A stretch of DNA of 64,000 bases from a bacterium (GTDB taxonomy: Bacteria > Patescibacteriota > Patescibacteriia > JAACEG01): positions 23,857 through 87,856 of the forward strand of contig DAOWHA010000038.1 in the NCBI GenBank assembly GCA_030641665.1, read 5' to 3'. Position 1 is the first letter of the stretch. Each line of letters starts with the position of its first letter. The notes under the pieces were generated by a model. It did no database searches. It was not told the DNA's origin and was given only the letters and a program-made list of their open reading frames with translations. The position numbers were made by a program, and so were the translations under genes. Shown here piece after piece: positions 4,687-60,739 of the stretch.

Positions 4687-4775
4687 TGTCTTTGCGAGGA
4701 GGCGATAGCCGACGAAGCCACACCTAACTGGTAGTCACCCGACAGGATGACAATCCCATTACTGAGCGAAAAAAT
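4687..4775. mobile_element. MITE-like repeat family A, truncated copy A1 (left TIR plus internal hairpin module only)
   Basis: TGTCTTTGCGAGGAGGCGATAGCC...GGTCACCCGACAGGATGACAAT is shared with copies at 13446, 20318 and 38838; overlaps the 3' end of the malic enzyme gene. Confidence 0.6.
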
Positions 4776-5946
4776 CTTTATTACAAACTCTATCCCGCTG
4801 TTCCGCCGCGTTTTTTACAGCGCGCGCGACTGCGAGATGAACTTTTTTATTTAAGACAGCTGGGATAAAATTATTTCTTTTCGGCGTTTTAATAAAGCTG
4901 GCAATAGCAAAACTTGCGGCAAGCTTCATTTTTTTGGTAATTCGCAAAGCCCTTGCGTCTATCGCGCCTCTGAATATTCCGGGAAAGGCAAGCGCGTTAT
5001 TTATTTGATTTGGAAAATCAGATCTGCCAGTAGCAACTATAAACGCTCCGCCATTGAGAGCTTCGGTTGGAAAAATTTCAGGTGTAGGATTTGCCAAAGC
5101 GAATATTATCGGTTTTTTATTCATAGATTTAATCCACTCTTTCTTTAAAACATTCGGCGCTGATACGCCTATAAAAATATCCGCGTTTTTTAAAGCGTCA
5201 GGCAATCCGCCGTCTATATTTTTTTTATTCGTAATTCTAGCAATGTCTTGCTTATAGGCATTGTTTTTTATATCAGATCTGTTTGAATAGATAACTCCTT
5301 TTGTATCGCAAACTAAAAAATCTTTTACGCCTGCGGAATGCAGTAATTTCAAAATAGCATAACCAGCGGATCCCGCGCCATTAATCACAATTTTTATATT
5401 TGTAATATTTTTATTAGTTATTTTCAAGGCATTTATCAATGAAGCCAAGACAACCACTGCTGTTCCGTGCTGGTCGTCGTGCATAACTGGAATTCCGATA
5501 TTTTGCAGTTTTTTTTCTATTTCAAAGCATCGCGGCGCGGAAATATCTTCTAAATTTATTGCGGCAAAATTAGGCGATATATTTTTTACTAATTTAATTA
5601 TCTCTTCGCTATTTTGCGTTTTTATGCAGATTGGAAAAGCGTCAATGTTAGCGAATTTTTTAAAAAGCGCTGCTTTTCCTTCCATTACGGGAATGGCTGC
5701 CAAAGCGCCGATATTGCCCAAGCCCAAAACAGCAGATCCGTCGCTCACGACCGCTAAAGAATTAGCTTTCATTGTCATTTCATACGCTTTTTTTTCGTCT
5801 TTGTAAATTTGCCTACTTATCTCCGCAACTCCAGGAGTATAAACAGTTGATAAAGTTTGCTTATTACTAATTGGAACTTTTAATTTAATCTCAATTTTGC
5901 CTCTATGCTTTTTATACAAGGCAATCGCTTTTTTATTATAATCCAT
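4759..5946 (-). CDS. NAD(P)-dependent malic enzyme (malate dehydrogenase, oxaloacetate-decarboxylating)
   Basis: N-terminal LSTVYTPGVAEISRQI and VVSDGSAVLGLGNIG motifs typical of malic enzymes; Rossmann GAGSAG. Confidence 0.8.
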   Translation of the reverse strand: MDYNKKAIALYKKHRGKIEIKLKVPISNKQTLSTVYTPGVAEISRQIYKDEKKAYEMTMKANSLAVVSDGSAVLGLGNIGALAAIPVMEGKAALFKKFANIDAFPICIKTQNSEEIIKLVKNISPNFAAINLEDISAPRCFEIEKKLQNIGIPVMHDDQHGTAVVVLASLINALKITNKNITNIKIVINGAGSAGYAILKLLHSAGVKDFLVCDTKGVIYSNRSDIKNNAYKQDIARITNKKNIDGGLPDALKNADIFIGVSAPNVLKKEWIKSMNKKPIIFALANPTPEIFPTEALNGGAFIVATGRSDFPNQINNALAFPGIFRGAIDARALRITKKMKLAASFAIASFIKTPKRNNFIPAVLNKKVHLAVARAVKNAAEQRDRVCNKDFFAQ

Positions 5947-6031
5947 AGTTTTTAAAATTTGTCTTGTTTATTTTTTTAATTTATTATATCATAATTTTAA
6001 AAGAGGGGAATATTAAGATATTTTTTTGTCT

Positions 6032-6209
6032 TGTCTTTGCGAGGAGCTGAACGAGTGAAACGAGTGAGGTGCGACGAAGCAATCTCGTTAATAACCGCAC
6101 AAACTATACAAAAATATAAACAAAATTGTAATCATAGACTTGTTCGCCCAGTAATGAGATTGCTTCGTCGCTCTCTCTCACTGTGTTCGTTTGGCTCCTC
6201 GCAAAGACA
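6032..6209. mobile_element. MITE-like repeat family A, full copy A2
   Basis: Terminal inverted repeats TGTCTTTGCGAGGAGC / GCTCCTCGCAAAGACA; nested inverted repeat GACGAAGCAATCTC / GAGATTGCTTCGTC. Confidence 0.7.
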
Positions 6210-6274
6210 GTGTAGAAAAATTCGCAAAGACAGATGGGAAAGAAGGGTTTAAGTTTAATATCAAATTTAAAATT

Positions 6275-7477: not shown

Positions 7478-7601
7478 TTTCATCGGATAAAATAATTATT
7501 TTAAAGGAAAGAATGTAAAGGGTGATATTGAGTTGCTTGAAAAAGCAATGATTTTAAAAAATAATAAACAATAAAATGATTAAAAAGAAAAATATAAAAA
7601 A

Positions 7602-13445: not shown

Positions 13446-13520
13446 TGTCTTTGCGAGGAGGCGATAGCCTACGAAGCCACACCTAACGGGTGGTCACCCG
13501 TTAGGGTGACAATCTTGTTA
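13446..13520. mobile_element. MITE-like repeat family A, truncated copy A3
   Basis: Left TIR plus hairpin module (CGGGTGGTCACCCG), the same arrangement as copy A1. Confidence 0.6.
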
Positions 13521-13672: not shown

Positions 13673-13723
13673 GATATTAAGATTGAGAGAGGAATAGTTG
13701 GATATTTAAAAGAGAATAAAAAA

Positions 13724-13995
13724 GTGAGAGTGGGAAATATAGTTTTAAAAAAGATTTGAAATTATGTTTCCCAATCTCACACAAAATTCTCAACAAAACA
13801 AAAAAACAAAATCTCCAACACAATAAACAATTCCTCTCTCAACCAAACTCTTTATATGAAGTGAGAGTGGGAAATATAGTTTTAAAAAAGATTTGAAATT
13901 ATGTTTCCCATTCCCACACAAAAAATTCTAACTCAAAAAAATCCACAACAAACAAACAAACAAACAAACTATCAATCCCCAACCTTTTATATCTA
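13724..13995 (+). ncRNA. Candidate structured small RNA: two tandem ~137-bp units, each with a 14-bp-stem hairpin
   Basis: GTGAGAGTGGGAAA-N31-TTTCCCAATCTCAC at 13724-13780, repeated at 13861-13918. Lies between a promoter and an intrinsic terminator. No ORF covers it. Confidence 0.35.
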
Positions 13996-16852: not shown

Positions 16853-16925
16853 TATATTTATTCATTCAAGGGCTTTTTATTTTCAATAAATTAAAAACAA
16901 ATCTGTCGCCCTGAATTCCACTATT

Positions 16926-17070
16926 GTCACCCTGAATTTATTTCAGGGTCTGTGCTTGTTATTTACTATATTATGTTTAAGAAAAATAAAGTAAAAAGTC
17001 AGGATTTTATTTATCTAATCATAATTTAGCGATAAGTAATAACAGATCCTGAAATAAATTCAGGATGACA
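16926..17070. mobile_element. MITE-like repeat family B, copy B1
   Basis: TIRs TGTCACCCTGAATTTATTTCAGGGTCTG / CAGATCCTGAAATAAATTCAGGATGACA; internal AATCATAATTTAGCGA is shared with the copy at 49605. Confidence 0.6.
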
Positions 17071-20317: not shown

Positions 20318-20508
20318 TGTCTTTGCGAGGAATGAAGTGGAGCGGCAGCGGAACGAAATGACGAAGCAATCTCATTACTGAGCGAATAAACCTATAATTA
20401 TAATCCCTTTGCCTATTAACGGGATTGTCACCCTGTCGGGTGACCACTCGTTAGGCGTGGCTTCGTCGCATTTTGCTCATTTTATTCGCTCGGCTCCTCG
20501 CAAAGACA
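20318..20508. mobile_element. MITE-like repeat family A, full copy A4 (internal module inverted relative to A5)
   Basis: TIRs TGTCTTTGCGAGGA / GCTCCTCGCAAAGACA; the internal GGTGACCACTCG/CACCCTGTCGGGTGAC hairpin module sits in reverse orientation. Confidence 0.7.
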
Positions 20509-20904
20509 GAAATGGAAAATTTCTTGCAAAGACAATTTGACAAAGAATGTATTTTAAAAAAAATAAGACTCGCCGATTGTTTGTGGCGAGCCCGCAGGGA
20601 TCGTAGAGGCAAGATTATTTTGTTATCGCCTCTGTTATTTTTTTTAAACCATCTTCGCCAACTGTTATGCTGGCGAAAACATCTTTTTCTTCATCAGTAA
20701 TTATAAAGGTTATTAACGAAGAACTAGTTTTTGTTAGAAACATCGTTTTTAATGAATTTTTTTCATCACTATCTATCCTGCAAATTTCTTTATCCATTTT
20801 ATTGTCCCCCTTTTTTCAGTGTTTGTGTTTTTTATAAAAATTATCAATATTTAAAATAAAAGTCAAGAGTAAAATTAAAAAAATAAAATAAATAAAATAA
20901 AAAA

Positions 20905-23055: not shown

Positions 23056-23084
23056 GAGGCAAATCACAGAAAGCGATTTGCCTC
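23056..23084 (+). terminator. Recurring palindromic hairpin (terminator-like) of the minigene array
   Basis: GAGGCAAATCACAGAAAGCGATTTGCCTC; near-identical hairpins at 23428, 23937 and 25684. Confidence 0.5.
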
Positions 23085-23207
23085 AGCCAGCCCTTTTAAA
23101 ATTATTCAGTTTGAATTTTCTTTATCACTTTCTGGTTTTAAAAAATCAGGGAATGAAAATAGAGGATTTAAAAAAATAAAATTTAAACCCTAAAAAAGGA
23201 GGAAAAA

Positions 23208-23417
23208 ATGAAAAGAACAAAAAAATGCCCTAATTGCGGGGCAGAGATGACTGAAGTGGAAGAAACGGGATTTTTATGGGACACATGCGTGAAAAACTGC
23301 CAAGGGGATTTTAAAGTCCTTGTGTCCCCTAGGACAAATGAAAAAACAGCAATTTTTAATTTTACAGAGGCTGTAAAAGAAGCTATATCCAAACTTGAAG
23401 CGTTGGGATATACATAA
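23208..23417 (+). CDS. Minigene cassette 2: small zinc-ribbon protein (CPNCG...C..NC)
   Basis: SD AAAAAGGAGGAAAAAATG; CxxCG ... CxxNC; followed by the conserved hairpin. Confidence 0.5.
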   Translation: MKRTKKCPNCGAEMTEVEETGFLWDTCVKNCQGDFKVLVSPRTNEKTAIFNFTEAVKEAISKLEALGYT

Positions 23418-23581
23418 AAAAGCAACTGAGGCAAATCGCCTTTCCGCGATTTGCCTCAGCCAACCCTTTTAAAATTATTCAGTTTGAATTTTCTTTATCA
23501 CGCTCTGATTTTAAAAAATCAGGGAATGAAAATAGAGGATTTAAAAAAATAAAATTTAAACCCTAAAAAAGGAGGGAAAAA

Positions 23582-25038: not shown

Positions 25039-25141
25039 TAATTTTAATCCCTTAATGCATCCTTTCCCCAGTTTTTTAAACTGGGGAGGGGGAGATTAGA
25101 GGAGTAAAAACCGAAAAACAAAAACAAAAAAGGAGGAAAAA

Positions 25142-25321
25142 ATGGCGGGAAAAGAAGTTTGTCCCATTTGCGGGGCGGAAAAAACGAAAAAGATGGATGC
25201 GCTCGGTCGCGAGTGGCTGAAATGCCCGAAATGTGATGGCGGAGTTTATGTCTTTCCCCGCGTCTTTCCAAAAAAAGACAGGGACGAGATTAAGGCAAAT
25301 CATCTTCATGGGCTCGCGTAG
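25142..25321 (+). CDS. Minigene cassette 5: 59-aa zinc-ribbon protein (CPICG...CPKCDG)
   Basis: SD AAAAAGGAGGAAAAAATG; two CxxC pairs; too short for the ORF track. Confidence 0.45.
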   Translation: MAGKEVCPICGAEKTKKMDALGREWLKCPKCDGGVYVFPRVFPKKDRDEIKANHLHGLA

Positions 25322-25349
25322 AGCGAATTTTAAAAAAAGGAGGAAAAAA

Positions 25350-25676
25350 GTGAGCAATTTTAAAAGAACAGTCAAAAAGGTAGCGAAAGAGCAAGGAAAA
25401 AAAGAAAAATGTCCCAATTGCGGGACAGAAATGAAAGAAGTTAGCCTTTTTGGCAACACATGGAACGCATGTCCAGATTGCGAAAAAGAAGTATTGTTTT
25501 TCTCAAATGGAGAAAACAAAGAAAAACAGCGCTGCAAGATTTGCGGGGAATTCACAAAAGAAAAAAGAGAAGACGATAGATTGCCAATAGTATGCCGGCA
25601 ATGCAAAAATGATATCGCGGCGCTACAGAAAAGATTAAAACCGCGGCAACCCCCTTTCTTAAGAATAATTGCTTAA
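25350..25676 (+). CDS. Minigene cassette 6: 108-aa double zinc-ribbon protein (GTG start)
   Basis: SD AAAAAAAGGAGGAAAAAAGTG; CPNCG/CPDC/CKICG/CRQC. The ORF-track start at 25233 is likely too far upstream. Followed by the hairpin at 25684-25717. Confidence 0.45.
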   Translation: MSNFKRTVKKVAKEQGKKEKCPNCGTEMKEVSLFGNTWNACPDCEKEVLFFSNGENKEKQRCKICGEFTKEKREDDRLPIVCRQCKNDIAALQKRLKPRQPPFLRIIA

Positions 25677-29067: not shown

Positions 29068-29090
29068 ACAATTATTGAATAAATATATTT

Positions 29091-31745: not shown

Positions 31746-31751
31746 TAATCT

Positions 31752-36225: not shown

Positions 36226-36705
36226 CAATACCGCTATGCGACATAAAAATAAAGCAAAAAATTAGGGCAGTTGGAATGCCCACAGGAGGAAAATTATACA
36301 CGGAAGATCTTTTAATATAATAGCCGACATATTACAAAGCAATGTAATATGTCGGCTATTTTTATTTTAATTTTTTTTAAACCCGCTAAAGATTAAAAAA
36401 TTAAAAGTCTATAAAGTTAAAATAAATTTATTTTCGACTTTATGGGTTTTTTATTTTTAACTTCTTTTGATTATTTTTTATGAATAAGTTCACTCACATA
36501 TTGGAATTTAATTATTTTTTTCATATTATTTTTTACGATTTTTTAAAACCCAATTCAATTTAGAAGTATAACTTTAAGCGATATGATTAAAAAGCAAAAA
36601 AATAAGAGCAATAGAAAAGTTGTAAAATTGATGCGGTCGCACATCTCTTATAACTTTTGATATTTTTATTTTTTTTGGCTGAATAAACTCGCTTATTGAA
36701 TAAAC

Positions 36706-36770
36706 TCACTTGCGATCCGATTTATTCGCAAAAAAATCGGCTAGTGGTAATAGCGGAGTTGATGGAATAG
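36706..36770 (+). pseudogene. Remnant 3' fragment of a second sortase gene
   Basis: About 90% identical to 32401-32468, the sortase 3' end encoding TCDPIYSQKNRLVIIAEL; no upstream ORF body. Confidence 0.5.
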
Positions 36771-37286
36771 GATATTTTAAATAAAATAAAATTTTAATTA
36801 TATTAAAAGGGCAGTAGAAAAACAATAAAAAAAAGTCAACGAGAAATATAGAATTTTCTAATAGATTTGTCGCGTAATTAATTTTTTTATATCCCGATTT
36901 TATGATTGAGAATTTTTTTATTTATAGATACCTTGCTTAAAGGAATTAATTTTGTTAAAATAAATAAAAAATTAAAGTTTTTTTTGGTTTCCGCAAAGCC
37001 AAAAAATATTCAGACTAATTCAAAGTAAAATAGGTATATTCGTATAAAAATATGCAAGATAAAAATATTCGCAAAGCAATAAAAAAATTTGCCTCTTCTC
37101 TATACAGAAAACTTATGCCCGCATACTTTGATTATTTAGGCAGCAAGGGGGTTAAAAGAAAAATAAAATAATAAAAAAAGAAAAGGTCTCCTTAGGCATT
37201 AAACCGTTTGGATCCCTTTTCGTCTTAATATTTAAATTATATAACAATAATTATAAAAAGTCAAGAATTGCTTAAATAAGCCAAGT

Positions 37287-38708
37287 ATGAAATTTTTTAA
37301 AAAAATAAAAAATGGTTTTAAAAAATATTTTTTAGTTTTGCGGGAATTTTTTGCTAAATTGCCTTTTTTTAAATTTGGCAAAAAAAACGGAAAAAAAATT
37401 TATGGCAATTTTAAAGATTTTTTAGATGAGGAAAAAGAGGAAATAGAAGAACTGGCAAGCGGAAAAGAGGGGCTTAAAAGATTTTGCTGCGATTCAGGGT
37501 CTATTTTTAAAGAATATTTCATACCGACCGAAGAAAACGGGCATAGGCCGAAAATTTTAAGAGCTAAATCCTTAGTGATTATCGCCGCGGTTTTAGTTAT
37601 TGTTAAAATGTCAGTGACCGGCTATCTGTTTTTCATTTATCCGAATCAGGCGAAAATGTCAGAACTGATTACCAAGAATATTTTAGAATTAATTAATGTT
37701 GACAGAAAAAGCAATGGAATAAGCGAACTGACAAATAATTCTGTTTTAAACGAAGCGGCTCTCAGTAAGGCGAAAGATATGGTTGAGAAAGGCTATTTTG
37801 CGCACAAAAGCCCTGATGGCCGCATGTCTTGGGATTTTATTAATAGATCGGAATACGCTTATCTGTTCGTTGGCGAGAATTTAGCAATGAATTTTACTTC
37901 AGCGCAATCGGCGCATAAAGCCCTGATGCTTTCAGAAACGCATAAAAAAAATATTTTAAGCGGCAAGTATTCAGATGTCGGACTGGCTATATTAACAGGA
38001 GTTATAGACGGAAGGAAGACTAATGTTTTAGTGCAGATTTTTGGCAGCGCGAATAACACAAAATTAGCAATGGTCTCAGCCGCTGATGATCAGACAGTTA
38101 AAAGCGAATCGCCGGCTGAAAGCGAAATAATTGAAAATCCGACAGTTGAAAAGATAGTTGCAGTTAAACAGGAAATATCAGCAGAAAATCCGCAAATTGA
38201 AGTCAAGGAGGCAAGCGCAGTTAAAGAAGAAATAAAAAAAACAGAGGAGGGGAAAAAGATAGAAGAAACTAAAGAAATAGGAGAAACAAAAAAGACAGAA
38301 GCGATAAAAGATATAGAAAAAACAGAAAAGCCAGCCGTTCAAACTCCTGCTGAAAAAATTATAGCAAAAGTAAGGGCTGCCTCTGCGTTAAGCGTTAAGC
38401 CTAAAGTAGATAATATTGATTTTAGCGGAATGAATGCCAGTTTGGCAGGCAAAGTTAAATCTTTTAATATAGAAGCTGAAAAAGAGATAACTATGGCAGA
38501 AAGCATTATAAAAATGTCGCGCTATACTTTCTTTATCGCTTTGGTAATAATCGCTGTCTCTTTACTGATTAATATATTTATTAAATTCAGAATTCAGCAC
38601 AAGCCGCTGATTATAGAAAGTATTTTGGCGATGATTTTTATAATCAGCTTAATCTATATAAAAACAAATTTTTTAGAGTATGTTTTAGAAAAAGTTTTTG
38701 TAGTTTAG
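37287..38708 (+). CDS. Membrane-anchored CAP/SCP/PR1-like domain protein
   Basis: GYFAHKSPDG...GENLAMNF...HKALMLSETHKKNIL is the CAP-domain signature; N- and C-terminal TM segments; K/E-rich linker. Confidence 0.6.
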   Translation: MKFFKKIKNGFKKYFLVLREFFAKLPFFKFGKKNGKKIYGNFKDFLDEEKEEIEELASGKEGLKRFCCDSGSIFKEYFIPTEENGHRPKILRAKSLVIIAAVLVIVKMSVTGYLFFIYPNQAKMSELITKNILELINVDRKSNGISELTNNSVLNEAALSKAKDMVEKGYFAHKSPDGRMSWDFINRSEYAYLFVGENLAMNFTSAQSAHKALMLSETHKKNILSGKYSDVGLAILTGVIDGRKTNVLVQIFGSANNTKLAMVSAADDQTVKSESPAESEIIENPTVEKIVAVKQEISAENPQIEVKEASAVKEEIKKTEEGKKIEETKEIGETKKTEAIKDIEKTEKPAVQTPAEKIIAKVRAASALSVKPKVDNIDFSGMNASLAGKVKSFNIEAEKEITMAESIIKMSRYTFFIALVIIAVSLLINIFIKFRIQHKPLIIESILAMIFIISLIYIKTNFLEYVLEKVFVV

Positions 38709-38837
38709 ATATTAATTGAAAGTTTATAAGGTCTATAAAGTCAAAGGTTTGTTTAATTTTAGCTGTTTTTGCTATTTTTTTAATTTTTTTGTATAATAAA
38801 AAAAGTTGGAGATTTATTTTGCATTTTTTTTATATTT

Positions 38838-39011
38838 TGTCTTTGCGAGGAGCCGAACGAGCGTAGCGAGAGAGAGCGACGAAGCCACGCCTAACGGGTG
38901 GTCACCCGACAGGGTGACAATCTCGTTAATTACGCAAAAAAGTTTATAATCATAGATTTGTCCGCTCAGTAATGGGATTGCCGCGTCGGCTATTGCCTCC
39001 TCGCAAAGACA
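38838..39011. mobile_element. MITE-like repeat family A, full copy A5
   Basis: TIRs TGTCTTTGCGAGGAGCC / GCCTCCTCGCAAAGACA; carries both the hairpin module and the TAATCATAGATTTGT module. Confidence 0.7.
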
Positions 39012-39050
39012 GAGGAATTTATACATTTCGTAATTTATAGAAATAAAAAA

Positions 39051-41240
39051 ATGAGGAGAAAAAGAAGGCAAAAAAACATAATAAGAGAAGAAACTGATTT
39101 TTCGCTTAAATCCGAAACAAAAAAAGGCGTGCTTATCGTTATAGTTTTTACTTTTGCGGTTCTATCCCTTTTGAGTTTTTTTCACTCAGCCGGGCGTTTT
39201 GGATTTTGGTTTGAAAAAATTTTAAAAAATTTTTTCGGACTGGGATATGCTGTTTTTCCGCTGATTTTATTAGCGTTTAGCTATCTGCTGATTGTTTCAA
39301 AAAAAATGGCGCTAAAAGCGATTCATTATTTTAGTTTCGCGTTTTTTGTATTAAGTTTTTACGCGCTTTTGCATTTAAGCCATCCGTTAAGCCAGAATTT
39401 TTTTCAAGATTTAAAAACGGCTTCGCATGGCGGCGGATATGTCGGAATTCTTTTAAGCTGGCCGCTTGAATATTTTTTAAGTTTTTGGGGCAGTTTGATA
39501 ATTTTATTGGCGATATTTATCAGTTCAATCTTGATAATTTTTAATATTTCTTTGGGCAGTATGTTTAACGGAGCGAGTATTTTTAAATTTGCGGCTATGA
39601 AATTTTTGCGAATTTTAAAATTATTAAAAATTAAGGCGGGTAATATTTATCAGCATAAAAAATTTAATGACAGCGGCGAGCAGCGCGAGGAAGAAGATTA
39701 TGAAAGCAGCGAAGACAGCAAAGACAGCAAGATTGATTTCAGGCAGTCTGAAATCAAAAAAAATTCTAACATCGAAAGTGAAAACGGCGGCGGGTTTCAG
39801 TTAAATCTTAATAATGTTTTTAATAAGCAGAAAATAGACCTTCCTGTGAGCTTATTGGAAAACAGTGGAGGCAAGCCGACAAGCGGCGACATAAACAGCA
39901 ATATAAATATTATTAAAAATACTTTGCAGAATTTCGGCATTGAGGTTGAAATGGGCGAAGTCAATATCGGACCGACCGTAACGCAATACACCTTAAAGCC
40001 GGCGGAAGGGGTTAAATTGTCGCAAATTATTACTTTGGGCAACGACTTGGCTTTAGCGCTGGCAGCGCATCCGATTCGCATAGAAGCGCCTATTCCGGGA
40101 AAATCTTTAGTAGGCGTTGAAGTTCCTAATAAAACCGCTGCCACTGTTCGCCTTAAAGATATTATAACCTCAAAAGAATTTAAGAATCGCGCTTCTAATC
40201 TGATGCTATCGCTTGGAAAAGATGTCTCTGGCAAGGCATGGATGCTGGATTTAGTGAAAAATCCGCATCTGCTGATTGCCGGATCTACCGGGTCTGGCAA
40301 AAGCATCTGCATAAATTCAATTATTTTAAGCCTGTTTTACCAAAACAGCCCGAATGAGTTAAAGTTCATTATGGTTGATCCGAAAAGAGTGGAGTTGCCT
40401 ATTTATAACAACACACCTTATTTAATCGCTCCTGTTATCACTAACACCAAGAAGACAGTAAGGGCATTAAAATGGGCGATTTCGGAAATGGAAAGGCGGT
40501 TTGAAGTTTTAGCGGAAGCAAGAAAACGGGATATTATTTCTTATAACGCAGCCAGCGAAGAAAAAATGTATAATTTGGTTATTATTATTGACGAACTTGC
40601 GGATTTAATGGCATCTGCAGGCGCTGAAATAGAAAATTTAATCATCCGCTTGGCGCAGATGTCGCGCGCGGTCGGGATCTATCTGATTTTAGCCACGCAA
40701 AGACCGTCCGTTAATGTAATTACCGGGCTTATTAAAGCGAATATAACTTCGCGCATCGCTTTTAGCGTCGCTTCGCTTGTTGATTCGCGGACAATTTTAG
40801 ATATGAGCGGAGCGGAAAAGTTATTAGGCAAAGGAGATATGCTTTTTATTTCCAATGAAATTTCCAAGCCGAAAAGGCTGCAAGGGGCTTATATTTCAGA
40901 AAAAGAGATTAAAAATATCACAGCTTACCTGCAAGCTCGCAACGACACGGAATATAATAATGAAATAACAGAAATTTCAGAATTAAGCAGCGAGGAAGAA
41001 AATCTTAATATTCCCGATGATGATTTAGAATTATTAAAACAAGCCAAAGAGATTGTGATTGCGGCAGGCAAAGCGTCGTCTTCTATGCTGCAAAGAAGGC
41101 TGCGTATCGGATATAATAGAGCGGCGCGGCTGATTGATATTTTAGAAGAGCAGGGAATGATTTCTCCATCAGACGGAACAAATCGTCCGCGCGAAGTGCT
41201 GGCTCTTGGGAAAGATATGCCGGATGATAAAAATGAATAA
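39051..41240 (+). CDS. ftsK: DNA translocase FtsK/SpoIIIE
   Basis: N-terminal polytopic membrane region, Walker A GSTGSGKS, C-terminal winged-helix gamma domain MLQRRLRIGYNRAARLID. Confidence 0.85.
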   Translation: MRRKRRQKNIIREETDFSLKSETKKGVLIVIVFTFAVLSLLSFFHSAGRFGFWFEKILKNFFGLGYAVFPLILLAFSYLLIVSKKMALKAIHYFSFAFFVLSFYALLHLSHPLSQNFFQDLKTASHGGGYVGILLSWPLEYFLSFWGSLIILLAIFISSILIIFNISLGSMFNGASIFKFAAMKFLRILKLLKIKAGNIYQHKKFNDSGEQREEEDYESSEDSKDSKIDFRQSEIKKNSNIESENGGGFQLNLNNVFNKQKIDLPVSLLENSGGKPTSGDINSNINIIKNTLQNFGIEVEMGEVNIGPTVTQYTLKPAEGVKLSQIITLGNDLALALAAHPIRIEAPIPGKSLVGVEVPNKTAATVRLKDIITSKEFKNRASNLMLSLGKDVSGKAWMLDLVKNPHLLIAGSTGSGKSICINSIILSLFYQNSPNELKFIMVDPKRVELPIYNNTPYLIAPVITNTKKTVRALKWAISEMERRFEVLAEARKRDIISYNAASEEKMYNLVIIIDELADLMASAGAEIENLIIRLAQMSRAVGIYLILATQRPSVNVITGLIKANITSRIAFSVASLVDSRTILDMSGAEKLLGKGDMLFISNEISKPKRLQGAYISEKEIKNITAYLQARNDTEYNNEITEISELSSEEENLNIPDDDLELLKQAKEIVIAAGKASSSMLQRRLRIGYNRAARLIDILEEQGMISPSDGTNRPREVLALGKDMPDDKNE

Positions 41241-41307
41241 ATGTGGTATAATGAACAAAAGTTAAAAGTTGAAAGTCTATAAAGTCGAAAGTAAAAAGTG
41301 AAATTTT

Positions 41308-46485: not shown

Positions 46486-47307
46486 ATGAATAAAAATAAC
46501 AAATTAATAATTTTTGAGAGCAAACAAATTCGCAGGGCTTGGCATAATGGCGAATGGTTTTTTTCAGTGGTTGATATTGTTGGAATTTTAACGGAAAGTC
46601 TTTATCCAAGGCAATATTGGGAAAAAGTAAAGCAAAGAGAATTTATAGATATTCAGTTGTCCCCAATTTGGTTACAACTGAAATTAGAAAGTTCTGACGG
46701 AAAAAAATACAGCACTGATTGCGTAAATTTGAAAAATGCTTTTCGTTTAATTCAATCAATTCCAAACAAAAAAGCAGAGCCGTTTAAAATGTGGCTGGCA
46801 CAAGTTGGAAAAGAAAGAATTGACGAAATAGAAAATCCAGAATTGGCGCAAGAAAGGATGAAACAAATTTACGAACAAAAGGGTTATCCAAAAGATTGGA
46901 TTGATAAACGATTGCGAGGAATGGCGATTAGACAAAATTTAACCGACGAATGGAAAGAGCGAGGAATTAAAATCCAAAGCGATTTTGCGATATTGACTGC
47001 TGAAATTTCCAAAGCGACTTTTGGAATGACGCCATCGGAATACAAAAAAATAAAAAATATCACAACAAAATCAAAAGCGAATTTGCGTGACAATATGACT
47101 GACTTGGAATTGATTTTTACAATGCTTGGCGAAAAAGTAACAACGGAAATTTCTCAAAAAGAAAAGCCAGACAATTTTGTTAAAAATAAAAAAGTTGCAA
47201 AACGAGGTGGTGGGGTAGCTGGTAAAGCAAGAAAAGATGCGGAAAAAGAGATAGGCAAAAGTATAATTTCAAAAAATAATTATTTAAGTAATAAAAAAAT
47301 AAAATAA
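46486..47307 (+). CDS. DinD-like DNA-damage-inducible protein (Bro-N-like N-terminus)
   Basis: N-terminal IFESKQIRRAWHNGEWFFSVVDI (Bro-N/DinD-like). The C-terminal FAILTAEISKATFG...KVAKRGGGVAGKARKD resembles E. coli DinD as I recall it. Confidence 0.55.
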   Translation: MNKNNKLIIFESKQIRRAWHNGEWFFSVVDIVGILTESLYPRQYWEKVKQREFIDIQLSPIWLQLKLESSDGKKYSTDCVNLKNAFRLIQSIPNKKAEPFKMWLAQVGKERIDEIENPELAQERMKQIYEQKGYPKDWIDKRLRGMAIRQNLTDEWKERGIKIQSDFAILTAEISKATFGMTPSEYKKIKNITTKSKANLRDNMTDLELIFTMLGEKVTTEISQKEKPDNFVKNKKVAKRGGGVAGKARKDAEKEIGKSIISKNNYLSNKKIK

Positions 47308-47451
47308 AAAAATGACAAAAAAGGGGGAGTCTTACGGCACTACGCCATTAGGAACCCCTTTCGTCTTAATATTTTTATTATATTATAAAAATAAATAGTA
47401 TTAATAGTTTAAAAAATAATTTAAAAATATTTAATAAATAAACAAAACCTT

Positions 47452-49604: not shown

Positions 49605-49750
49605 TGTCATTCCGAATTTATTTCGGAATCTGTGTTTAATATTAACTAAATATTACTCGGCAAGATAAGTTATGATATTTAAAGTTTTATCAATCTTAAT
49701 CATAATTTAGCGAATAGTAGTGACAGATCCTGAAATAAATTCAGGATGAC
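49605..49750. mobile_element. MITE-like repeat family B, copy B2
   Basis: TIRs TGTCATTCCGAATTTATTTCGGAATCTG / CAGATCCTGAAATAAATTCAGGATGACA. Confidence 0.6.
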
Positions 49751-49770
49751 AATAATTTTGAATTATTCTT

Positions 49771-51426: not shown

Positions 51427-51566
51427 TGTCTTTGCGAGGAGGCGATAGCCGACGAAGCAATCCCATTACTGGGCGAGTAAATCTATAATTATAATTTTTT
51501 TATCTATTAACGAGATTGCTTCGTCGCATCTCATTCGCTGCGCTCATTCGGCTCCTCGCAAAGACA
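51427..51566. mobile_element. MITE-like repeat family A, full copy A6
   Basis: TIRs TGTCTTTGCGAGGAGG / GGCTCCTCGCAAAGACA; contains the GACGAAGCAATCCCATTACTG / TAACGAGATTGCTTCGTCG inverted pair. Confidence 0.7.
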
Positions 51567-51843: not shown

Positions 51844-51923
51844 TGGTCGGTCGCAGCGGATTTGAACCGCCGATATCCACGATCGACGATCATGGCGCCT
51901 TAACCTGACTTGGCTAACGACCG
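51844..51923 (-). tRNA. tRNA (CCA encoded). The anticodon loop looks non-canonical and is centred on GTC, so possibly Asp
   Basis: Reverse complement gives acceptor CGGTCGT/GCGACCG, T-arm GGCGG-TTCAAAT-CCGCT, D-arm with GG, and anticodon region CCATGA-TCGTCGA-TCGTGG. Confidence 0.55.
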
Positions 51924-51945: not shown

Positions 51946-52021
51946 TGGTTGGGGTGGGGGGATTTGAACCTCCGACTATTCGGTTATACCCAAATACTCT
52001 ACCATGCTGAGTTACACCCCG
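51946..52021 (-). tRNA. tRNA (76 nt, CCA encoded) with C1xA72 mismatch and an unusual 6-nt or 8-nt anticodon loop; identity unresolved
   Basis: Reverse complement: CGGGGTG...D-arm ACTC-AGCATGGTA-GAGT...TTTGG-GTATAA-CCGAA...GGAGG-TTCAAAT-CCCCC-CACCCCA-A-CCA. Confidence 0.5.
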
Positions 52022-57167: not shown

Positions 57168-58163
57168 ATGGATCATCACAAATTAACTTTGGAGCAAGTA
57201 GCAAGAGTAGAGAAAGGCATTGGTATTGATGCTTTTGTACGACTAAGTAATCAGTTGCCGGAAATCGGTGTTAAATACGGCGACAAGTTGCTTGGGCAAG
57301 TTGAGGCGATTCTCAATATGGTTGATCCCATGGATCAGGAAAAGTTGCTTGCCGGCGAAGCGTCAATCGAAATTATCGAGATTATTAAATCTTTGTTCGA
57401 TAACACTAGTCGCGTTATTCCGCCTCGCGGATTTAAGTTGCCGGTAACTGATGAAAATAGGAAGTTTTATCTTGATCAGCATGTTGTTGATCATCAAGAC
57501 ACACTGAAACGTTTAACAGATTATCTCCATGGATATAAATATCCGTCTTTATCCGAGTTTCAGGATAAATGCGAATCCGTCAAGGAGAAATCATTGCAGT
57601 ATCCGCGAATCGGAGAAAACGCGTTTAATCGCTGCTATCTTCCTCTTCCGATACCGCATATTCCGGAATTGTCTGACTTAACAAAACTGGGAAAAGTTAT
57701 AGAAGATTTGCTTGAAGGAGTGGGACGGGCTTATAAGAATGAGTTTCCCGATCGTACTTTCTATAATCACAGACAAGGAACTTTGGCAGGCGAGGTTTCA
57801 ATCGTTTCCGGCACAAGACATGGCAAATTACTTGAAGCTGCTTCCAAAGCGCCGCAATCAGGCATATTTCTCCCTGATTCTTTGCAGGGATATTCAATTC
57901 ACGCTGACAGGAAAATTATTTCATTGTTTCCCAACTTTGTTTCACTTAGCGGTATTGAATATATTTTTGCAATGATTGCTTATCCTGACATTCTGGCGCG
58001 TGACTACAACACGCCCGGACTGGATATGGCCGCTCTTTTCTGGCGGTCCGCCGACTATTCGCTTCTCTTCGAGGCTAGCGACGACGAGCTCAGCTTCGGC
58101 CGCACGGGCTACTTGGCCGTTGCCTACGACTTCTATTCTGGCGGTCTCTTGTTTCTCGGGTAG
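57168..58163 (+). CDS. DGR target protein; C-terminal variable region in a putative C-type-lectin/FGE-like fold
   Basis: Its last 126 nt form the VR. The C-terminal WRSADYS...GGLLFLG resembles the CRSANR...IGFRLV ends of CLec/FGE-type DGR targets. The 3' end is locally GC-rich. Confidence 0.65.
   Translation: MDHHKLTLEQVARVEKGIGIDAFVRLSNQLPEIGVKYGDKLLGQVEAILNMVDPMDQEKLLAGEASIEIIEIIKSLFDNTSRVIPPRGFKLPVTDENRKFYLDQHVVDHQDTLKRLTDYLHGYKYPSLSEFQDKCESVKEKSLQYPRIGENAFNRCYLPLPIPHIPELSDLTKLGKVIEDLLEGVGRAYKNEFPDRTFYNHRQGTLAGEVSIVSGTRHGKLLEAASKAPQSGIFLPDSLQGYSIHADRKIISLFPNFVSLSGIEYIFAMIAYPDILARDYNTPGLDMAALFWRSADYSLLFEASDDELSFGRTGYLAVAYDFYSGGLLFLG
58037..58162 (+). repeat. DGR variable repeat (VR)
   Basis: 126 bp paired with 58531-58656; 18 mismatches, all at positions that are A in the other copy. 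Confidence 0.85.
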
Positions 58164-58244
58164 TGCAGGGATTTGGTCTTTTTGTTCCTTGGTTTTTGGA
58201 TCAAAAATTTTGGTTCTTGGTTTTTGGTCGAATTTTTAAAATCA

Positions 58245-58280
58245 CGAGGCGTGACAATGTTGCGCCTCGTTTTTCTTTTT
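58245..58280 (+). terminator. Rho-independent terminator after the DGR target gene
   Basis: CGAGGCGTGACAATGTTGCGCCTCG hairpin followed by TTTTTCTTTTT. Confidence 0.55.
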
Positions 58281-58530
58281 AAAATATGATAAAATAAATT
58301 TGGGAGTAGGCTAATGCAACCGGTCTCAAGGGGTAGCGGTTCGCCGAAACCCTAAATTTCTACCAACGCATCAGAATTTTGCGGTTCACTTTGGATTGCA
58401 AAAGAGTATGTGAAAATTTAGGCACTACTTGTCTTTTTCTGGCGTTCAACTTTTAAGAGCCAAATAAAATACAGGGGGAATATTACTTTTCAAGCTATTT
58501 TCCCAGTGGTTAAAGATGGAAAAAGACGAA

Positions 58531-58656
58531 TTTTCTGGCAGTCCGCCGACTATTCGCTTAACTTCAAGGCTAACGACGACAAGCTCAACTTCGACAACAC
58601 GGACAACTTGGCCAATGCCAACGACAACTATTCTAGCGGTCTCTTGTTTCTCGGGT
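58531..58656 (+). repeat. DGR template repeat (TR)
   Basis: Intergenic copy rich in AAC codons (NFKANDDKLNFDNTDNLANANDNY in frame); it carries adenine at every VR/TR mismatch site. Confidence 0.85.
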
Positions 58657-58720
58657 TGTGTCTAAATGTAATAAAGGCCTCATTATAGAGGTCTTTATTC
58701 GTTATTATCTTTGAGGTAAT

Positions 58721-59071
58721 TTAGTTAAGCGAGCGTTGCCAGCCGCCTAACATTCTGCCAATTTCTTGAATCTGCTTTTGTAATTCGAGATATTTTTTAC
58801 TATCAATAATATTCAAGTCTTTTAGCAGTCTAATAAACAGTTTTAGGGTATCAAATTTAGCATTAGCTTTCTTAATTAAAGCCAACTTTTCATCTCTGTA
58901 AGCGCAACTGGTCTCCAACAATAGTTCAAGCGTAACAATAATATACATTTCGCACTTAGCCCCTAAAGTATGTTTATCTTTTTTAGGAAATAAAGCAGAG
59001 TATTTATAAAAAAGTTTATACAGTTCATATAATTTTTTAATTATTGGAATATCTGTATTTTTATGATCCAT
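58721..59071 (-). CDS. Avd-like accessory variability determinant (four-helix-bundle protein, TIGR02436-like)
   Basis: 116-aa helical protein (YELYKLFYKYSALFPKKDKHTLGAKCEMYIIVTLELLLETS...GGW) resembling four-helix-bundle/Avd proteins found beside DGR reverse transcriptases. Opposite strand, overlapping the RT start by 9 nt. Confidence 0.6.
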   Translation of the reverse strand: MDHKNTDIPIIKKLYELYKLFYKYSALFPKKDKHTLGAKCEMYIIVTLELLLETSCAYRDEKLALIKKANAKFDTLKLFIRLLKDLNIIDSKKYLELQKQIQEIGRMLGGWQRSLN

Positions 59072-60124
59072 AATATTTATGATAAATTAATTAGTTTGGA
59101 AAATATTTTAATTTGCTGGAATGAATTCAAAAAAGGCAAATCAAAAAAATATGACATGATGGAATTTGAGCGTTATTTGGAAGATAATATTTTTGAGCTT
59201 CATAACGAATTAGTTAATCAAACTTATCAGCACTGCCCTTATGTAAAATTCCATATCTATGATCCAAAGCATAGAATAATCCATAAAGCCGAAGTTAAAG
59301 ACAGAATAGTTCATCACATTGTTTTTAAGGAATTATATAGAATTTTTAATCCAACTTTTATATATCATTCGTATTCGTCCAGAAATAATAAGGGTACTCA
59401 TTTGGCTGTTAGGAATTTATCCCGTACATTACGGAAAGTTAGCAATAACTACACAAAGCAGGTTTATGTATTGAAATGCGATATTAAAAAATTTTTTCAT
59501 AGCGTATCTCACCAAAAACTTTTTGAAATAATAAAAAATAAGATTAACGACCATAAATTTTTGTGGCTAGTATGGCAAATTATATCAAGTTTTTTCATAA
59601 TTGCGGAAAACTTTCCGCAGAGAGAGTTAAAGAAAAATTTTTTAGAAAAAAGAGGTTTACCAATAGGTAATTTAACCTCACAAATTTTTGCTAATATATT
59701 TTTGGATAAATTCGACTGGTTCATTAAAAAGCAATTAAGAATAAAATATTATTTTAGATATGCTGACGATTTTGTGATTATTAATTCAAACCCGGAATAT
59801 CTTAATAATATTGTTAACTTAATAGAGGAATTTTTAAATACAAAACTTAATTTAAAATTACATCCTCAGAAAACAGAAATTAGAAAATTCGAACAGGGTG
59901 TTGATTTTCTCGGATATGTTATTTTACCTCATTATATAACACTTCGGACAAAAACCAAAAAGAGGGTGTTTAAAAAAATTAAAGATAATAAAGAAAAATT
60001 GGATCAAAATTTGATATCTAAAAATTCTTTTAATCAATCGCTTCAGTCGTATTACGGAATATTTATGCGCTGTAATAGCTATAAATTAAAACGAGAACTT
60101 GATAAGTTTATTAAAGATTTTTAG
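59063..60124 (+). CDS. DGR reverse transcriptase
   Basis: RT motifs: domain 4 PIGNLTSQ (DGR-type [ILV]GxxxSQ), domain 5 RYADDFVII (YxDD); 353 aa; no maturase or endonuclease domain; adjacent to TR/VR. Confidence 0.8.
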   Translation: MIHNIYDKLISLENILICWNEFKKGKSKKYDMMEFERYLEDNIFELHNELVNQTYQHCPYVKFHIYDPKHRIIHKAEVKDRIVHHIVFKELYRIFNPTFIYHSYSSRNNKGTHLAVRNLSRTLRKVSNNYTKQVYVLKCDIKKFFHSVSHQKLFEIIKNKINDHKFLWLVWQIISSFFIIAENFPQRELKKNFLEKRGLPIGNLTSQIFANIFLDKFDWFIKKQLRIKYYFRYADDFVIINSNPEYLNNIVNLIEEFLNTKLNLKLHPQKTEIRKFEQGVDFLGYVILPHYITLRTKTKKRVFKKIKDNKEKLDQNLISKNSFNQSLQSYYGIFMRCNSYKLKRELDKFIKDF

Positions 60125-60278
60125 TTTTGGCTTAAAATTTCAAGTCATTCTTTCGCGATATAGAATTATAATTCCTTTACAAATCGGTTTAGAATAGATA
60201 AGATACAATCAGTTAAAACATTTTATTTTTTTACAATTTAATATCAAAAATTTAAATTGGGCGAAAAGGAGGAAAAAA

Positions 60279-60527
60279 ATGAAAAATTTTTCGAAAAAAT
60301 ATTTTCAAAATTTAATAACACAAAGACCTAATTGGTGTCGTAGTACCACATTATTAATTCTGGCGATATTTTTAGTTTTATTATTTATCAAAGATGTTGC
60401 GTGGGTTACAGAGAATGTAAAAAAAATATCCGTGATAAGCATCAGTTTTATTGTTTCATTATTTATAATAGCCCGGGTTGTTGATTTTTTCAGTTTTTTT
60501 CAAAATCAAACTAAAAAGGGCAATTAA
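60279..60527 (+). CDS. Hypothetical small membrane protein
   Basis: SD AAAAGGAGGAAAAAAATG; two TM segments. Confidence 0.35.
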   Translation: MKNFSKKYFQNLITQRPNWCRSTTLLILAIFLVLLFIKDVAWVTENVKKISVISISFIVSLFIIARVVDFFSFFQNQTKKGN

Positions 60528-60596
60528 AGTTTCAAGAGCGAGAGAAAACCAAAGCCCAACTCTCGCTCCTCAATCCAAATTTTTGATGAAAATTAT

Positions 60597-60739
60597 TGTC
60601 TTTGCGAGGAGCCGAATGAGCGAAGCGAGAGAGGTGCGACGAAGCAATCTGATTAATTACGCAAAAAAATTTATAATCATAGATTTGTTCACTTAGTAAT
60701 GAGATTGCTTCGCTCCGTTGCACTACGCTCGCAAAGACA
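60597..60739. mobile_element. MITE-like repeat family A, copy A7 (degenerate right TIR)
   Basis: Left TIR TGTCTTTGCGAGGAGCC; GACGAAGCAATCTG...GAGATTGCTTCG inverted pair; right end CGCTCGCAAAGACA. Confidence 0.65.

What the first reader, a model, noticed from the sequence alone, without database searches (positions are those of the whole stretch)
4687..60739. MITE-like repeat family A: seven copies with TGTCTTTGCGAGGAG terminal inverted repeats and modular hairpin-rich interiors
Copies lie at 4687-4775, 6032-6209, 13446-13520, 20318-20508, 38838-39011, 51427-51566 and 60597-60739. Full copies (about 140-200 bp) are bounded by TGTCTTTGCGAGGAG...CTCCTCGCAAAGACA. Two short copies carry only the left end plus module H. 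The interiors are assembled from two modules:
- Module H, GACGAAGCCACRCCTAACGGGTGGTCACCCGACAGGGTGACAAT, which holds two alternative hairpins.
- Module T, GACGAAGCAATCTC...TAATCATAGATTTGT...GAGATTGCTTCGTC.

The modules occur in either orientation. All copies are intergenic and often touch gene ends; the aroC start annotated by the ORF track lies inside copy A2. No transposase is present. The density (about 1 per 9 kb) suggests a non-autonomous element or a REP-like structured RNA family.
Basis: seen in the sequence. Interest (0 to 1): 0.55.

Follow-up and report, generated by a model that had tools for sequence, protein, structure and literature searches.

The report
Nuclease-linked hairpin repeats in a Parcubacterium
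The seven repeats are real, non-coding hairpin elements; their ends belong to a hairpin-repeat family found across many bacterial phyla that elsewhere flanks genes for small GIY-YIG single-strand DNA nucleases (Ssn), so this is a local variant of a recently described system, not a classical transposon relic.

Summary
Seven copies lie at the stated coordinates, all intergenic. Five are full copies that fold into long hairpins and two are half copies. The window is a Candidatus Parcubacteria MAG (GCA_023142625.1).

The ends are not lineage-specific. TGTC[A/T]TTGCGAGGAG…GACGAAGCAATC occurs in at least 15 phyla, usually as 72-130 nt head-to-head hairpin dimers. Among 118 sampled flanking ORFs no transposase family recurred; separately, a ~95-aa single-domain GIY-YIG gene lay beside the units in 3 of 119 loci. 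In 7 of 7 independent loci of that gene clade, these units flank the gene. In one locus the gene sits exactly in the hairpin loop. The clade is homologous (44% identity, E=7e-17) to the NTS-flanked gonococcal gene that I take to be the ssnA orthologue. SsnA is a published site-specific ssDNA nuclease (Chenal 2025).

Family A is therefore best read as a TGTC-tagged, REP-like, Ssn-related hairpin repeat. It is elaborated here with a conserved AT-rich spacer (module T) and a 33-nt insert (module H).

- It has no target-site duplications.
- It is absent from the orthologous site and from ~64 kb of close relatives, so it was gained recently.
- It fails the published SRM search motif.
- No ssn gene lies in the window.

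Verdict: new variant of a known kind, moderate interest.

The parts
4687..4775 (+). A1, half copy. Unit with short insert: TGTC-TTTGC-GAGGAG-GCGATAGCC-GACGAAGC. Then module H (4719-4751), then AATC, then the start of module T. Its last 17 nt overlap the 3' end and stop codon of the malic-enzyme gene (4759-5946, minus strand).
6032..6209 (+). A2, full copy: long-insert arm, module T, long-insert arm. It lies between the divergent malic-enzyme and aroC genes.
   Evidence: (-88 kcal/mol, z -12.9)
6221..6232 (-). Partial extra end TTCGCAAAGACA, 12 nt outside A2's right end ('stutter').
13446..13520 (+). A3, half copy: short-insert unit, module H (13478-13510), then the start of module T. It begins 6 nt after the stop of the 1007-aa surface-protein gene.
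20318..20508 (-). A4, full copy in inverted orientation. It has a long-insert arm with module H (20427-20459), module T, and a third arm type. The left end has 1 mismatch.
20523..20534 (-). Partial extra end CTTGCAAAGACA, 15 nt outside A4's right end.
38838..39011 (+). A5, full copy: long-insert arm with module H (38886-38918), module T, short-insert arm. It sits between a conserved promoter-like site (38769-38797) and the ftsK start (39051). It is absent at the orthologous site in relatives.
51427..51566 (-). A6, full copy in inverted orientation: the same as A5 without module H. It lies between an ABC-transporter gene and two tRNA genes.
60597..60739 (+). A7, full copy with a degenerate right arm. 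It lies between an 82-aa ORF downstream of the DGR and secA.
60761..60772 (-). Degenerate partial extra end CTCGCAAAGGCA, 21 nt outside A7's right end.

Best explanation
Family A is the local form, in one Parcubacteria lineage, of a hairpin repeat found across many bacterial phyla.

**The unit.** It reads TGTC, then (A/T)TTGC, then GAGGAG, then a variable small hairpin, then GACGAA, then GCAAT, then C. Two units in head-to-head orientation, separated by a spacer, make a long hairpin or cruciform, much like a REPIN. In this genome the spacer is a conserved ~60-70 nt AT-rich segment (module T). Some units carry a discrete 33-nt insert (module H) between GACGAAGC and AATC.

**The partner.** In other genomes this repeat type is the flanking motif of small single-domain GIY-YIG genes of the Ssn family. 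Ssn proteins are site-specific ssDNA endonucleases that bind their hairpin motif in single-stranded DNA and cut a few nucleotides upstream of the GTC tag (shown for the Neisseria NTS motif in PMC11893778).

**Inferred mechanism here.** When the locus becomes single-stranded (replication, DNA uptake, repair), each TGTC-tagged strand presents a recognition hairpin for a cognate Ssn encoded elsewhere in the genome or lost. Copies are non-autonomous. They were gained by an ssDNA-level, duplication-free insertion or copy process.

**Shown:**
- the repeat and its hairpins;
- the distribution across phyla;
- the gene association in other genomes;
- homology of that gene to the NTS-flanked gonococcal gene that I take to be the ssnA orthologue;
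- absence of target-site duplications;
- absence at an orthologous site in relatives.

**Inferred:**
- that an Ssn recognises this flavour;
- that Ssn or another enzyme spreads it;
- any role in controlling transformation.
For: They come from Chloroflexota, Patescibacteria, Bacteroidota, Alpha-, Beta- and Gammaproteobacteria, Desulfobacterota, Verrucomicrobiota, Nitrospirota, Acidobacteriota, Gemmatimonadota, Omnitrophota, Bacillota, Campylobacterota and others. Isolate genomes are included. Members are mostly 72-130 nt head-to-head dimers.
2. **Gene partner.**
   - A ~95-aa ORF matching only PF01541 GIY-YIG lies directly beside units in L104, L150 and L195.
   - In L104 the gene fills the loop between the two arms.
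   - Four further independent loci of the same clade (L203, L206, L209, L214) also carry units within 260 nt of the gene. That makes 7 of 7.
3. **The clade is Ssn.** tblastn gives a single homologue in N. gonorrhoeae (44% identity, E=7e-17, 91% coverage). It is embedded among 11 NTS copies in 3.2 kb, which is the NTS-ssnA-NTS architecture of PMC11893778.
4. **Key positions are kept.** The positions critical for SsnA on NTS are GTC just upstream of the palindrome and C just after it (PMC11893778). Both are conserved in the unit, TGTC|TTGC...GCAA|TC.
5. **The variable insert is under selection for pairing.** Inserts of 8-12 nt have a stem of at least 4 bp in 43% of cases, against 1.5% when shuffled. 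The stem sequences are very different from one another.
6. **Recent gain.**
   - A5 is missing from the orthologous CAP-ftsK spacer in relatives with 93% and 87% FtsK identity.
   - There are no copies in about 64 kb of non-redundant DNA from relatives, against 7 in this 64 kb window.
7. **No other candidate mobilising gene.** No target-site duplications and no recurrent transposase among 118 neighbouring ORFs.
8. **Module H is a clean 33-nt insertion.** A1 equals the left arm of A6 plus H. H sits at the same position in a Saccharibacteria copy, L125.
Against: - No GIY-YIG gene lies in the window. The rest of this genome could not be searched, so a cognate Ssn is unproven here.
- The published SRM search motif matches none of the window's units and 0 of 132 units elsewhere, although it works on NTS loci.
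- Single units fold only weakly as DNA (-1.6 to -5.7 kcal/mol, z not significant). NTS folds at -9.2 kcal/mol with z -3.4. The stable structure here is the dimer.
- The window's T variant replaces the first A-T stem pair by T·T.
- Only 3 of 119 repeat-selected loci carry the gene.
- In Tolypothrix and Calothrix the gene sits in one conserved context. That looks domesticated and stable, not actively mobile.
- No experiment shows that any Ssn moves DNA.
Confidence: 0.65

Rival explanations
1. Classical MITE. A deletion derivative of a DDE-transposase insertion sequence (for example IS630/Tc1-like), mobilised in trans through its 15-bp terminal inverted repeats by cut-and-paste.
For: - Terminal inverted repeats, small size, no coding capacity and intergenic location.
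- Presence/absence polymorphism between relatives.
Against: - There is no target-site duplication at any of the five full copies. Flank similarity is not above shuffles.
- The same ends occur in at least 15 phyla without any recurrent transposase among 118 neighbouring ORFs.
- Half copies keep one complete unit, as expected for REP-like singlets.
- The ends are part of an internally structured 38-55 nt unit, not a simple transposase-binding end.
Confidence: 0.05
2. REP/REPIN system mobilised by a RAYT or other IS200/IS605-type HUH tyrosine transposase encoded elsewhere in the genome.
For: - Head-to-head dimers of a tagged palindromic unit, with singlets as well as doublets.
- No target-site duplication, and intergenic location. 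All of this is REPIN-like.
Against: - The tag is TGTC, not GTAG.
- Di Nocera 2013 (PMC3733652) found no tyrosine transposase gene flanked by CGTC/TGTC repeats.
- None appeared among the families listed for 118 neighbouring ORFs.
- The only recurrent neighbour is GIY-YIG.
Confidence: 0.08
3. A host-function element independent of any nuclease. The long hairpins would act at RNA level (3'-end stabiliser, attenuator or 5'-UTR structure) or as binding sites for a host DNA-binding protein, and were spread by recombination.
For: - Most copies lie just downstream of + strand genes or in 5' leaders. A5 lies between a conserved promoter-like site and ftsK.
- The hairpins are very stable.
- GC content is 43-53% in a 36% GC genome.
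Against: - No terminator-like T-run follows the hairpins, and no consistent promoter lies in module T.
- No Rfam match, even at E=1.
- Close relatives lack the element at the same gene junction, so it is dispensable there.
- Conservation of exact DNA words across phyla together with a nuclease gene partner points to protein recognition of DNA.
Confidence: 0.15

Closest known systems
Ssn-related motifs (SRM), including the Neisseria NTS/dRS3 repeat, with their Ssn GIY-YIG ssDNA nucleases (Chenal et al., Nat Commun 2025, PMC11893778)
   Same: - An oriented hairpin repeat with a (C/T)GTC tag just 5' of the stem and a C just 3' of it.
- High copy number and intergenic location, often in inverted pairs.
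- Flanks homologues of ssnA (7 of 7 loci for this flavour).
- The gene clade is homologous to the NTS-flanked Neisseria gene.
   Different: - It does not match the published SRM search sequence.
- The stem is only 4-5 bp, followed by a conserved purine-rich internal loop (GAGGAG / GACGAA) and a variable upper hairpin. NTS has a simple 8-bp stem with a 4-nt loop.
- Single units are predicted to be weak hairpins.
- In this window the dimer carries a conserved 60-70 nt spacer and an optional 33-nt insert.
- No ssn gene is in view.
- No cleavage data exist for this flavour.
CGTC-tagged REPs (Di Nocera, De Gregorio & Rocco, BMC Genomics 2013, PMC3733652)
   Same: - The tag is CGTC, 'changed to TGTC in many repeats'.
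- The stem begins with A-T pairs in the common A variant.
- Mostly head-to-head dimers, found in several phyla.
- No dedicated transposase was found.
   Different: - The described families have 8-9 bp stems and 4-5 nt loops. Here the lower stem is 4-5 bp and the interior is 12-40 nt.
- The window's variant starts with T·T.
- The tail is CTC or CCC here, not CCA.
- The paper's Figure 2 is not held, so I could not check whether the ATTGCGAG type is one of its four families.
REPINs / REP-RAYT systems (GTAG-tagged REP doublets)
   Same: Doublets of inverted REP units form a long hairpin that moves as one unit. Singlets coexist. No target-site duplication. Intergenic.
   Different: A different tag (TGTC against GTAG), and no RAYT association (PMC3733652).
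Bacterial MITEs such as Correia/NEMIS, ERIC, RUP and Nezha
   Same: Size of 140-190 bp, terminal inverted repeats, modular interiors, intergenic location and hairpin-forming transcripts.
   Different: - Those families have target-site duplications and ends related to insertion sequences.
- They are genus-restricted. About 97% of prokaryotic MITE clusters are genus-specific according to PMC11602168.
- Here there is no duplication, and the ends are shared across phyla.

Membership tests
Ssn-related motif (SRM) / NTS | Matches the published degenerate search sequence HGTCWYN(0-2)YYVSBRHN(0-5)WNVSBRGN(0-2)RNCYNB | tested here: not met
   There are 0 matches in the window (0.02 expected) and 0 of 132 ATTGCGAG-type units elsewhere. 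The same regex finds 8 sites in the gonococcal ssnA locus.
Ssn-related motif (SRM) / NTS | Oriented hairpin with GTC immediately 5' of the palindrome and C immediately 3' of it (the positions critical for SsnA cleavage and binding) | tested here: met
   The unit is TGTC|TTGC...GCAA|TC in every complete unit. The requirement comes from PMC11893778.
Ssn-related motif (SRM) / NTS | A 20-50 nt inverted repeat that forms a stable hairpin on its own | tested here: inconclusive
   Units are 38-55 nt, and the minimum-energy fold shows the expected lower stem plus upper hairpin. The energies are weak (-1.6 to -5.7 kcal/mol, z not significant) against -9.2 kcal/mol and z -3.4 for NTS. Pairing of the upper stem is enriched over shuffles.
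Ssn-related motif (SRM) / NTS | Flanks genes of the Ssn (single-domain GIY-YIG) family | tested here: met
   Met for the repeat type in other genomes: 7 of 7 independent loci. The gene is homologous to the NTS-flanked Neisseria gene. Not met inside this window, where no GIY-YIG ORF was found.
Ssn-related motif (SRM) / NTS | Bound and cut as ssDNA, on one strand only, by the cognate Ssn | not testable with these tools
   Needs purified protein and oligonucleotides.
CGTC-tagged REP (Di Nocera 2013) | Terminal CGTC or TGTC tag, mostly head-to-head dimers, no flanked transposase gene | tested here: met
   definition.
CGTC-tagged REP (Di Nocera 2013) | Stem of 8-9 bp starting with A-T pairs, loop of 4-5 nt, CCA tail | tested here: not met
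   The lower stem is 4-5 bp with a 12-40 nt interior. The window variant begins with T·T, and the tail is CTC or CCC.
MITE (non-autonomous DDE transposon) | Terminal inverted repeats, small size, no ORF | tested here: met
MITE (non-autonomous DDE transposon) | Target-site duplication flanking each copy | tested here: not met
   No short direct repeats at the boundaries. Local alignment of the 45-nt flanks is not above shuffles for any of the 5 full copies.
MITE (non-autonomous DDE transposon) | A parent insertion sequence with the same ends that encodes a transposase | tested here: not met
   No transposase family recurs among 118 ORFs next to family members. None is in the window. The whole source genome could not be searched.
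REP/REPIN-RAYT | GTAG tag and an associated RAYT gene flanked by the repeats | tested here: not met
   The tag is TGTC. No Y1 transposase was among the neighbours listed. The literature agrees.

The most novel reading that the evidence does not exclude
The Ssn-type GIY-YIG nuclease may be the long-missing mobilising enzyme of CGTC/TGTC-tagged REPs. On this reading, 'hairpin arm, ssn, hairpin arm' units such as L104 253-619 are autonomous members of a previously unrecognised class of ssDNA transposon that leaves no target duplication. Family A of this Parcubacterium would then be its non-autonomous (MITE/REPIN-like) offspring.

The evidence does not exclude this:
- the gene sits exactly in the hairpin loop in one locus;
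- the protein is 70-80% identical across distant phyla;
- the non-coding copies show presence/absence polymorphism between close relatives.
Probability: 0.2. Interest if true: 0.8.

Novelty: new variant of a known kind. Interest (0 to 1): 0.42.

Why it matters
- **It resolves the 'orphan MITE'.** A repeat that looked like an orphan MITE in a candidate-phyla-radiation genome is tied to a concrete, recently discovered enzyme family, the Ssn ssDNA nucleases.
- **It adds a widespread motif flavour.** The ATTGCGAG…GCAATC type has a two-tier hairpin and is missed by the published SRM search motif. It may account for part of the Ssn homologues reported without a motif, and it would offer new specificities for ssDNA-cutting tools.
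- **It bears on Patescibacteria biology.** As far as I know (general knowledge, not tested here), Patescibacteria are thought to depend on DNA uptake. In Neisseria, Ssn and its motif modulate natural transformation. Dense Ssn-type hairpins in a Parcubacterium therefore raise a testable idea: incoming or replicating ssDNA may be policed in these reduced genomes.
- **It gives a starting point for an open question.** The presence/absence polymorphism at ftsK gives a concrete locus for asking how these repeats spread, which has been open since CGTC REPs were described without a transposase.

Tried and rejected
- **Literature search with peptide and DNA words** read from the repeat (RFARND, CHCEE, FASLAMT, CATTGCGAGG): only noise.
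- **Exact look-up of a window protein** (ABC transporter): not on record. The organism was identified later through FtsK.
- **E. coli YhbQ (UPF0213) as a probe** for GIY-YIG neighbours: it found only one weak hit. The L104 ORF itself was needed. The closest PDB entry is only 1ZG2 at E=8e-4.
- **Viral contigs.** The 15-mer occurs 83 times, about what I would expect by chance for a 15-mer in a collection of this size. Only three contigs show the full unit, and none has a GIY-YIG gene nearby.
- **Metagenome scan** with a window-specific inner-arm word: 9 hits. None is from close relatives, and two look like unrelated repeats. The lineage's own ssn-bearing copy, if any, was not found.
- **Promoter idea** (a TATAAT in module T driving downstream genes): no consistent -35/-10 pair inside the element. 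Promoter-like sites lie upstream of A5 instead.
- **Long (~26 nt) target duplication at A5**, suggested by eye: not above shuffles.
- **Identical ssn proteins in different genomic contexts** as a sign of active transposition. P0022 and P0044 each occupy a single conserved context.
- **Four-helix-bundle (Avd-like) gene as partner:** no support.


Full report

Yes. TGTCTTTGCGAGGAG (up to 2 mismatches) occurs 11 times in the window, against 0.07 expected. Every hit lies at a stated copy end. I read all seven copies.
- A2, A4, A5 and A6 are bounded by the inverted 15-mer. A4's left end has one mismatch.
- A7 has a degenerate right end (12 of 15).
- A1 and A3 are half copies.

The five full copies fold into long hairpins on either strand (-46 to -88 kcal/mol, z -4.5 to -12.9). 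Module H occurs four times and the inner motif GACGAAGCAATC six times, and both occur only inside family A. All copies are intergenic in a window that is about 86% coding. Element GC content is 43-53%, against 35.6% for the window.

**2. Anatomy**

Each arm is a unit: TGTC, TTTGC, GAGGAG, an insert, GACGAA, GCAAT, C. Two insert types recur.
- The short type is GCGATAGCC, which forms a small GGC/GCC hairpin.
- The long type is purine-rich, about 26 nt: CCGAAYGAGCGNAGCGAGWGAGRTGC.

The canonical element is long-insert arm, module T, short-insert (or other) arm. A2, A5 and A7 are in one orientation and A4 and A6 are in the other.

Module H is a clean 33-nt insertion between GACGAAGC and AATC. A1 is identical to the left arm of A6 except for H.

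Three right ends are followed 12-21 nt further out by a second partial end, (C)TCGCAAAGACA. Such 'stutters' occur at 5 of 208 units overall. My own estimate of the chance expectation is about 0.3.

There are no target-site duplications. Nothing is visible at the boundaries, and flank-to-flank similarity is not above shuffles.

**3. Organism and relatives**

SecA and FtsK place the window in Patescibacteria. NCBI contig JAGLJD010000090.1 of Candidatus Parcubacteria bacterium GCA_023142625.1 equals window 29051-40768 at 99.97% identity.

Relatives with 93% and 87% FtsK identity keep the CAP-gene to ftsK junction, including a conserved promoter-like TTGCTA-17-TATAAT. They lack A5. About 64 kb of non-redundant DNA from these near relatives holds no family A copy, against seven in this 64 kb window. 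If the density were equal, the Poisson probability of finding none would be about 1e-3. The family was therefore gained or expanded recently in this lineage.

**4. The ends are not lineage-specific**

The 119 stretches come from at least 15 phyla and include isolate chromosomes of Bradyrhizobium, Mucilaginibacter, Chryseobacterium and Flavobacterium. This rules out an assembly artefact.

Most members are 72-130 nt head-to-head dimers. The window's 140-191 nt copies are at the long end. Only 5 of 132 units use the T variant that is universal in the window.

The insert between GAGGAG and GACGAA is highly variable but self-complementary far more often than shuffles. For 8-12 nt inserts, 43% have a stem of at least 4 bp, against 1.5% shuffled. 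For 13-33 nt inserts the figures are 70% and 23%. That is compensatory variation.

An H-bearing unit at the same position occurs in a Saccharibacteria genome, L125.

**5. Gene partner**

In 3 of the 119 loci a ~95-aa ORF lies directly beside the units. It matches only PF01541 GIY-YIG. In L104 it fills the loop between the two arms (253-619).

The protein family is huge. At least 8000 homologues were found, with 70-80% identity across Bacillota, Dehalococcoidia, cyanobacteria, Desulfobacteraceae, WOR-3 and KSB1. Four further independent loci of the clade all carry ATTGCGAG-type units within 260 nt of the gene. That makes 7 of 7.

As a control, the 118 nearest ORFs to units in the 119 loci are unrelated housekeeping genes. 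No transposase family recurs.

**6. Link to the literature**

Di Nocera et al. 2013 (PMC3733652) described CGTC-tagged REPs. These are often TGTC-tagged, have A-T-initiated stems, occur as head-to-head dimers in several phyla, and 'apparently lack a dedicated transposase'.

Chenal et al. 2025 (PMC11893778) showed several things about N. meningitidis SsnA.
- It is a 94-aa single-domain GIY-YIG protein (cd10448) that binds the NTS hairpin CGTCATTCCCGCGMAVGCGGGAATCYRG.
- It binds only ssDNA, and only one strand.
- It cuts a few nucleotides upstream of the motif.
- The GTC before the palindrome and the C after it are the critical bases.
- 71% of ssnA homologues have such 'Ssn-related motifs' in their flanks.
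- The system modulates natural transformation.

The L104-clade protein finds a single homologue in N. gonorrhoeae (44% identity, E=7e-17). That homologue sits among 11 NTS copies in 3.2 kb, so I take it to be the ssnA orthologue.

Other homologues carry other flavours of the motif.
- Planktothrix: GTCATTCTGAG…GAAGAATC.
- Spirosoma: GTCATCCCGAGG…GGGATC.
- Neorhizobium: CGTCATCCTCGGG…CCGAGGATCC.
- Aeromonas: NTS-like.

The ATTGCGAG…GCAATC type is thus one flavour of a GTCAT-tagged superfamily, and it keeps both critical positions.

**7. Where it does not fit**

- The published SRM search sequence matches nothing in the window.
- It matches 0 of 132 units elsewhere, although my implementation finds 8 sites in the gonococcal locus.
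- Single units fold weakly as DNA, unlike NTS. The stable structure is the dimer.
- No GIY-YIG ORF is in the window, and I could not search the rest of the genome.
- In Tolypothrix and Calothrix the ssn homologue sits in one conserved context. This argues against ongoing mobility of the gene there.

**8. Other tests**

- Rfam found only two tRNAs in the window and nothing in A5, even at E=1.
- There is no consistent promoter in module T and no terminator-like T-runs.
- GC skew is positive throughout, and 44 of 54 genes are on the + strand. The + strand is therefore probably the lagging-strand template. Both half copies present their TGTC-tagged strand on it, but with n=2 this is not evidence.

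**9. Verdict**

It is wrong on the likely partner, which is not IS200/IS605 or IS630, and on 'MITE' in the DDE-transposon sense.

The best-supported reading is a lineage-specific, elaborated, head-to-head dimer form of a TGTC-tagged hairpin repeat found across phyla, one flavour of the motifs associated with Ssn ssDNA nucleases.

How the copies spread is not known. The idea that Ssn itself mobilises them is attractive but unproven. I rate it a new variant of a known kind, with moderate interest.

Noticed in passing
window 57168-60124: A complete diversity-generating retroelement.
- The target gene is 57168-58163, with its variable repeat at 58036-58165.
- The template repeat is 58531-58660.
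- Within the repeat core, all differences are adenines in the template changed to G, T or C in the variable copy.
- A 116-aa ORF at 58721-59071 (minus strand) may be an Avd-like accessory gene. This was not tested.
- A 353-aa reverse transcriptase with a YADDFVI motif is at 59063-60124.
- The whole cassette, plus A7, lies between the L25 gene and secA. Close relatives (L218, L219) have only a 385-nt spacer there.
   Followed up: partly
window 13722-13830 and 13859-13967: Two tandem ~109-nt copies (80% identical) of a hairpin-containing sequence, GTGAGAGTGGGAAATATAG...TTTCCCAATCTCAC. They lie in the 810-nt gene-free gap just downstream of A3. This could be a small RNA or another repeat family.
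   Followed up: no
window 1303-1352, 36389-36474, 38700-38740, 41248-41295; also L232 ~3270-3320: A second short repeat family made of ~16-nt AAAGTCTATAAAGT(C/T)GAAAG units, in tandem and inverted arrangements. It is also present upstream of ftsK in the 93%-identity relative, at the place where this window has A5.
   Followed up: no
window 16922-17070 and 49686-49754: A ~66-69 nt inverted-repeat family (74-80% complementary), unrelated to family A. One pair of arms lies only 14 nt apart.
   Followed up: no
window 37154-37251 and 47295-47392: A 98-nt direct repeat (73% identical) in two intergenic regions upstream of genes. It contains GGTCTCCTTAGGCATTAAACCGTTTGGATCCC and could be a conserved leader or small RNA.
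   Followed up: no
window 51946-52021 (minus strand): Rfam calls this a tRNA at 42 bits, but ARAGORN reports an undetermined anticodon ('at' at position 35). It lies next to tRNA-Asp (51844-51923) and 280 nt from A6.
   Followed up: no
L217 (Planktothrix agardhii plasmid NZ_LR882964.1, 18847-19131): An Ssn-type GIY-YIG gene with its own hairpin flavour (GTCATTCTGAG...GAAGAATC) and tandem 'stuttered' partial tags. It sits between an MmeI-type restriction-modification gene and DISARM drmA, which is a defence-island context.
   Followed up: no
window 4759-4775: The last five codons and the stop codon of the malic-enzyme gene (…DFFAQ*) are supplied by the end of half copy A1. The element has therefore either remodelled the C-terminus or inserted flush with it.
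   Followed up: partly
window 23073-23208 and 23446-23581; 25126-25429: A 136-nt direct repeat (96% identical). In addition, there are three copies of a ribosome-binding site plus start region encoding a small zinc-ribbon-like N-terminus (CPxCG). This suggests recently duplicated small genes.
   Followed up: no
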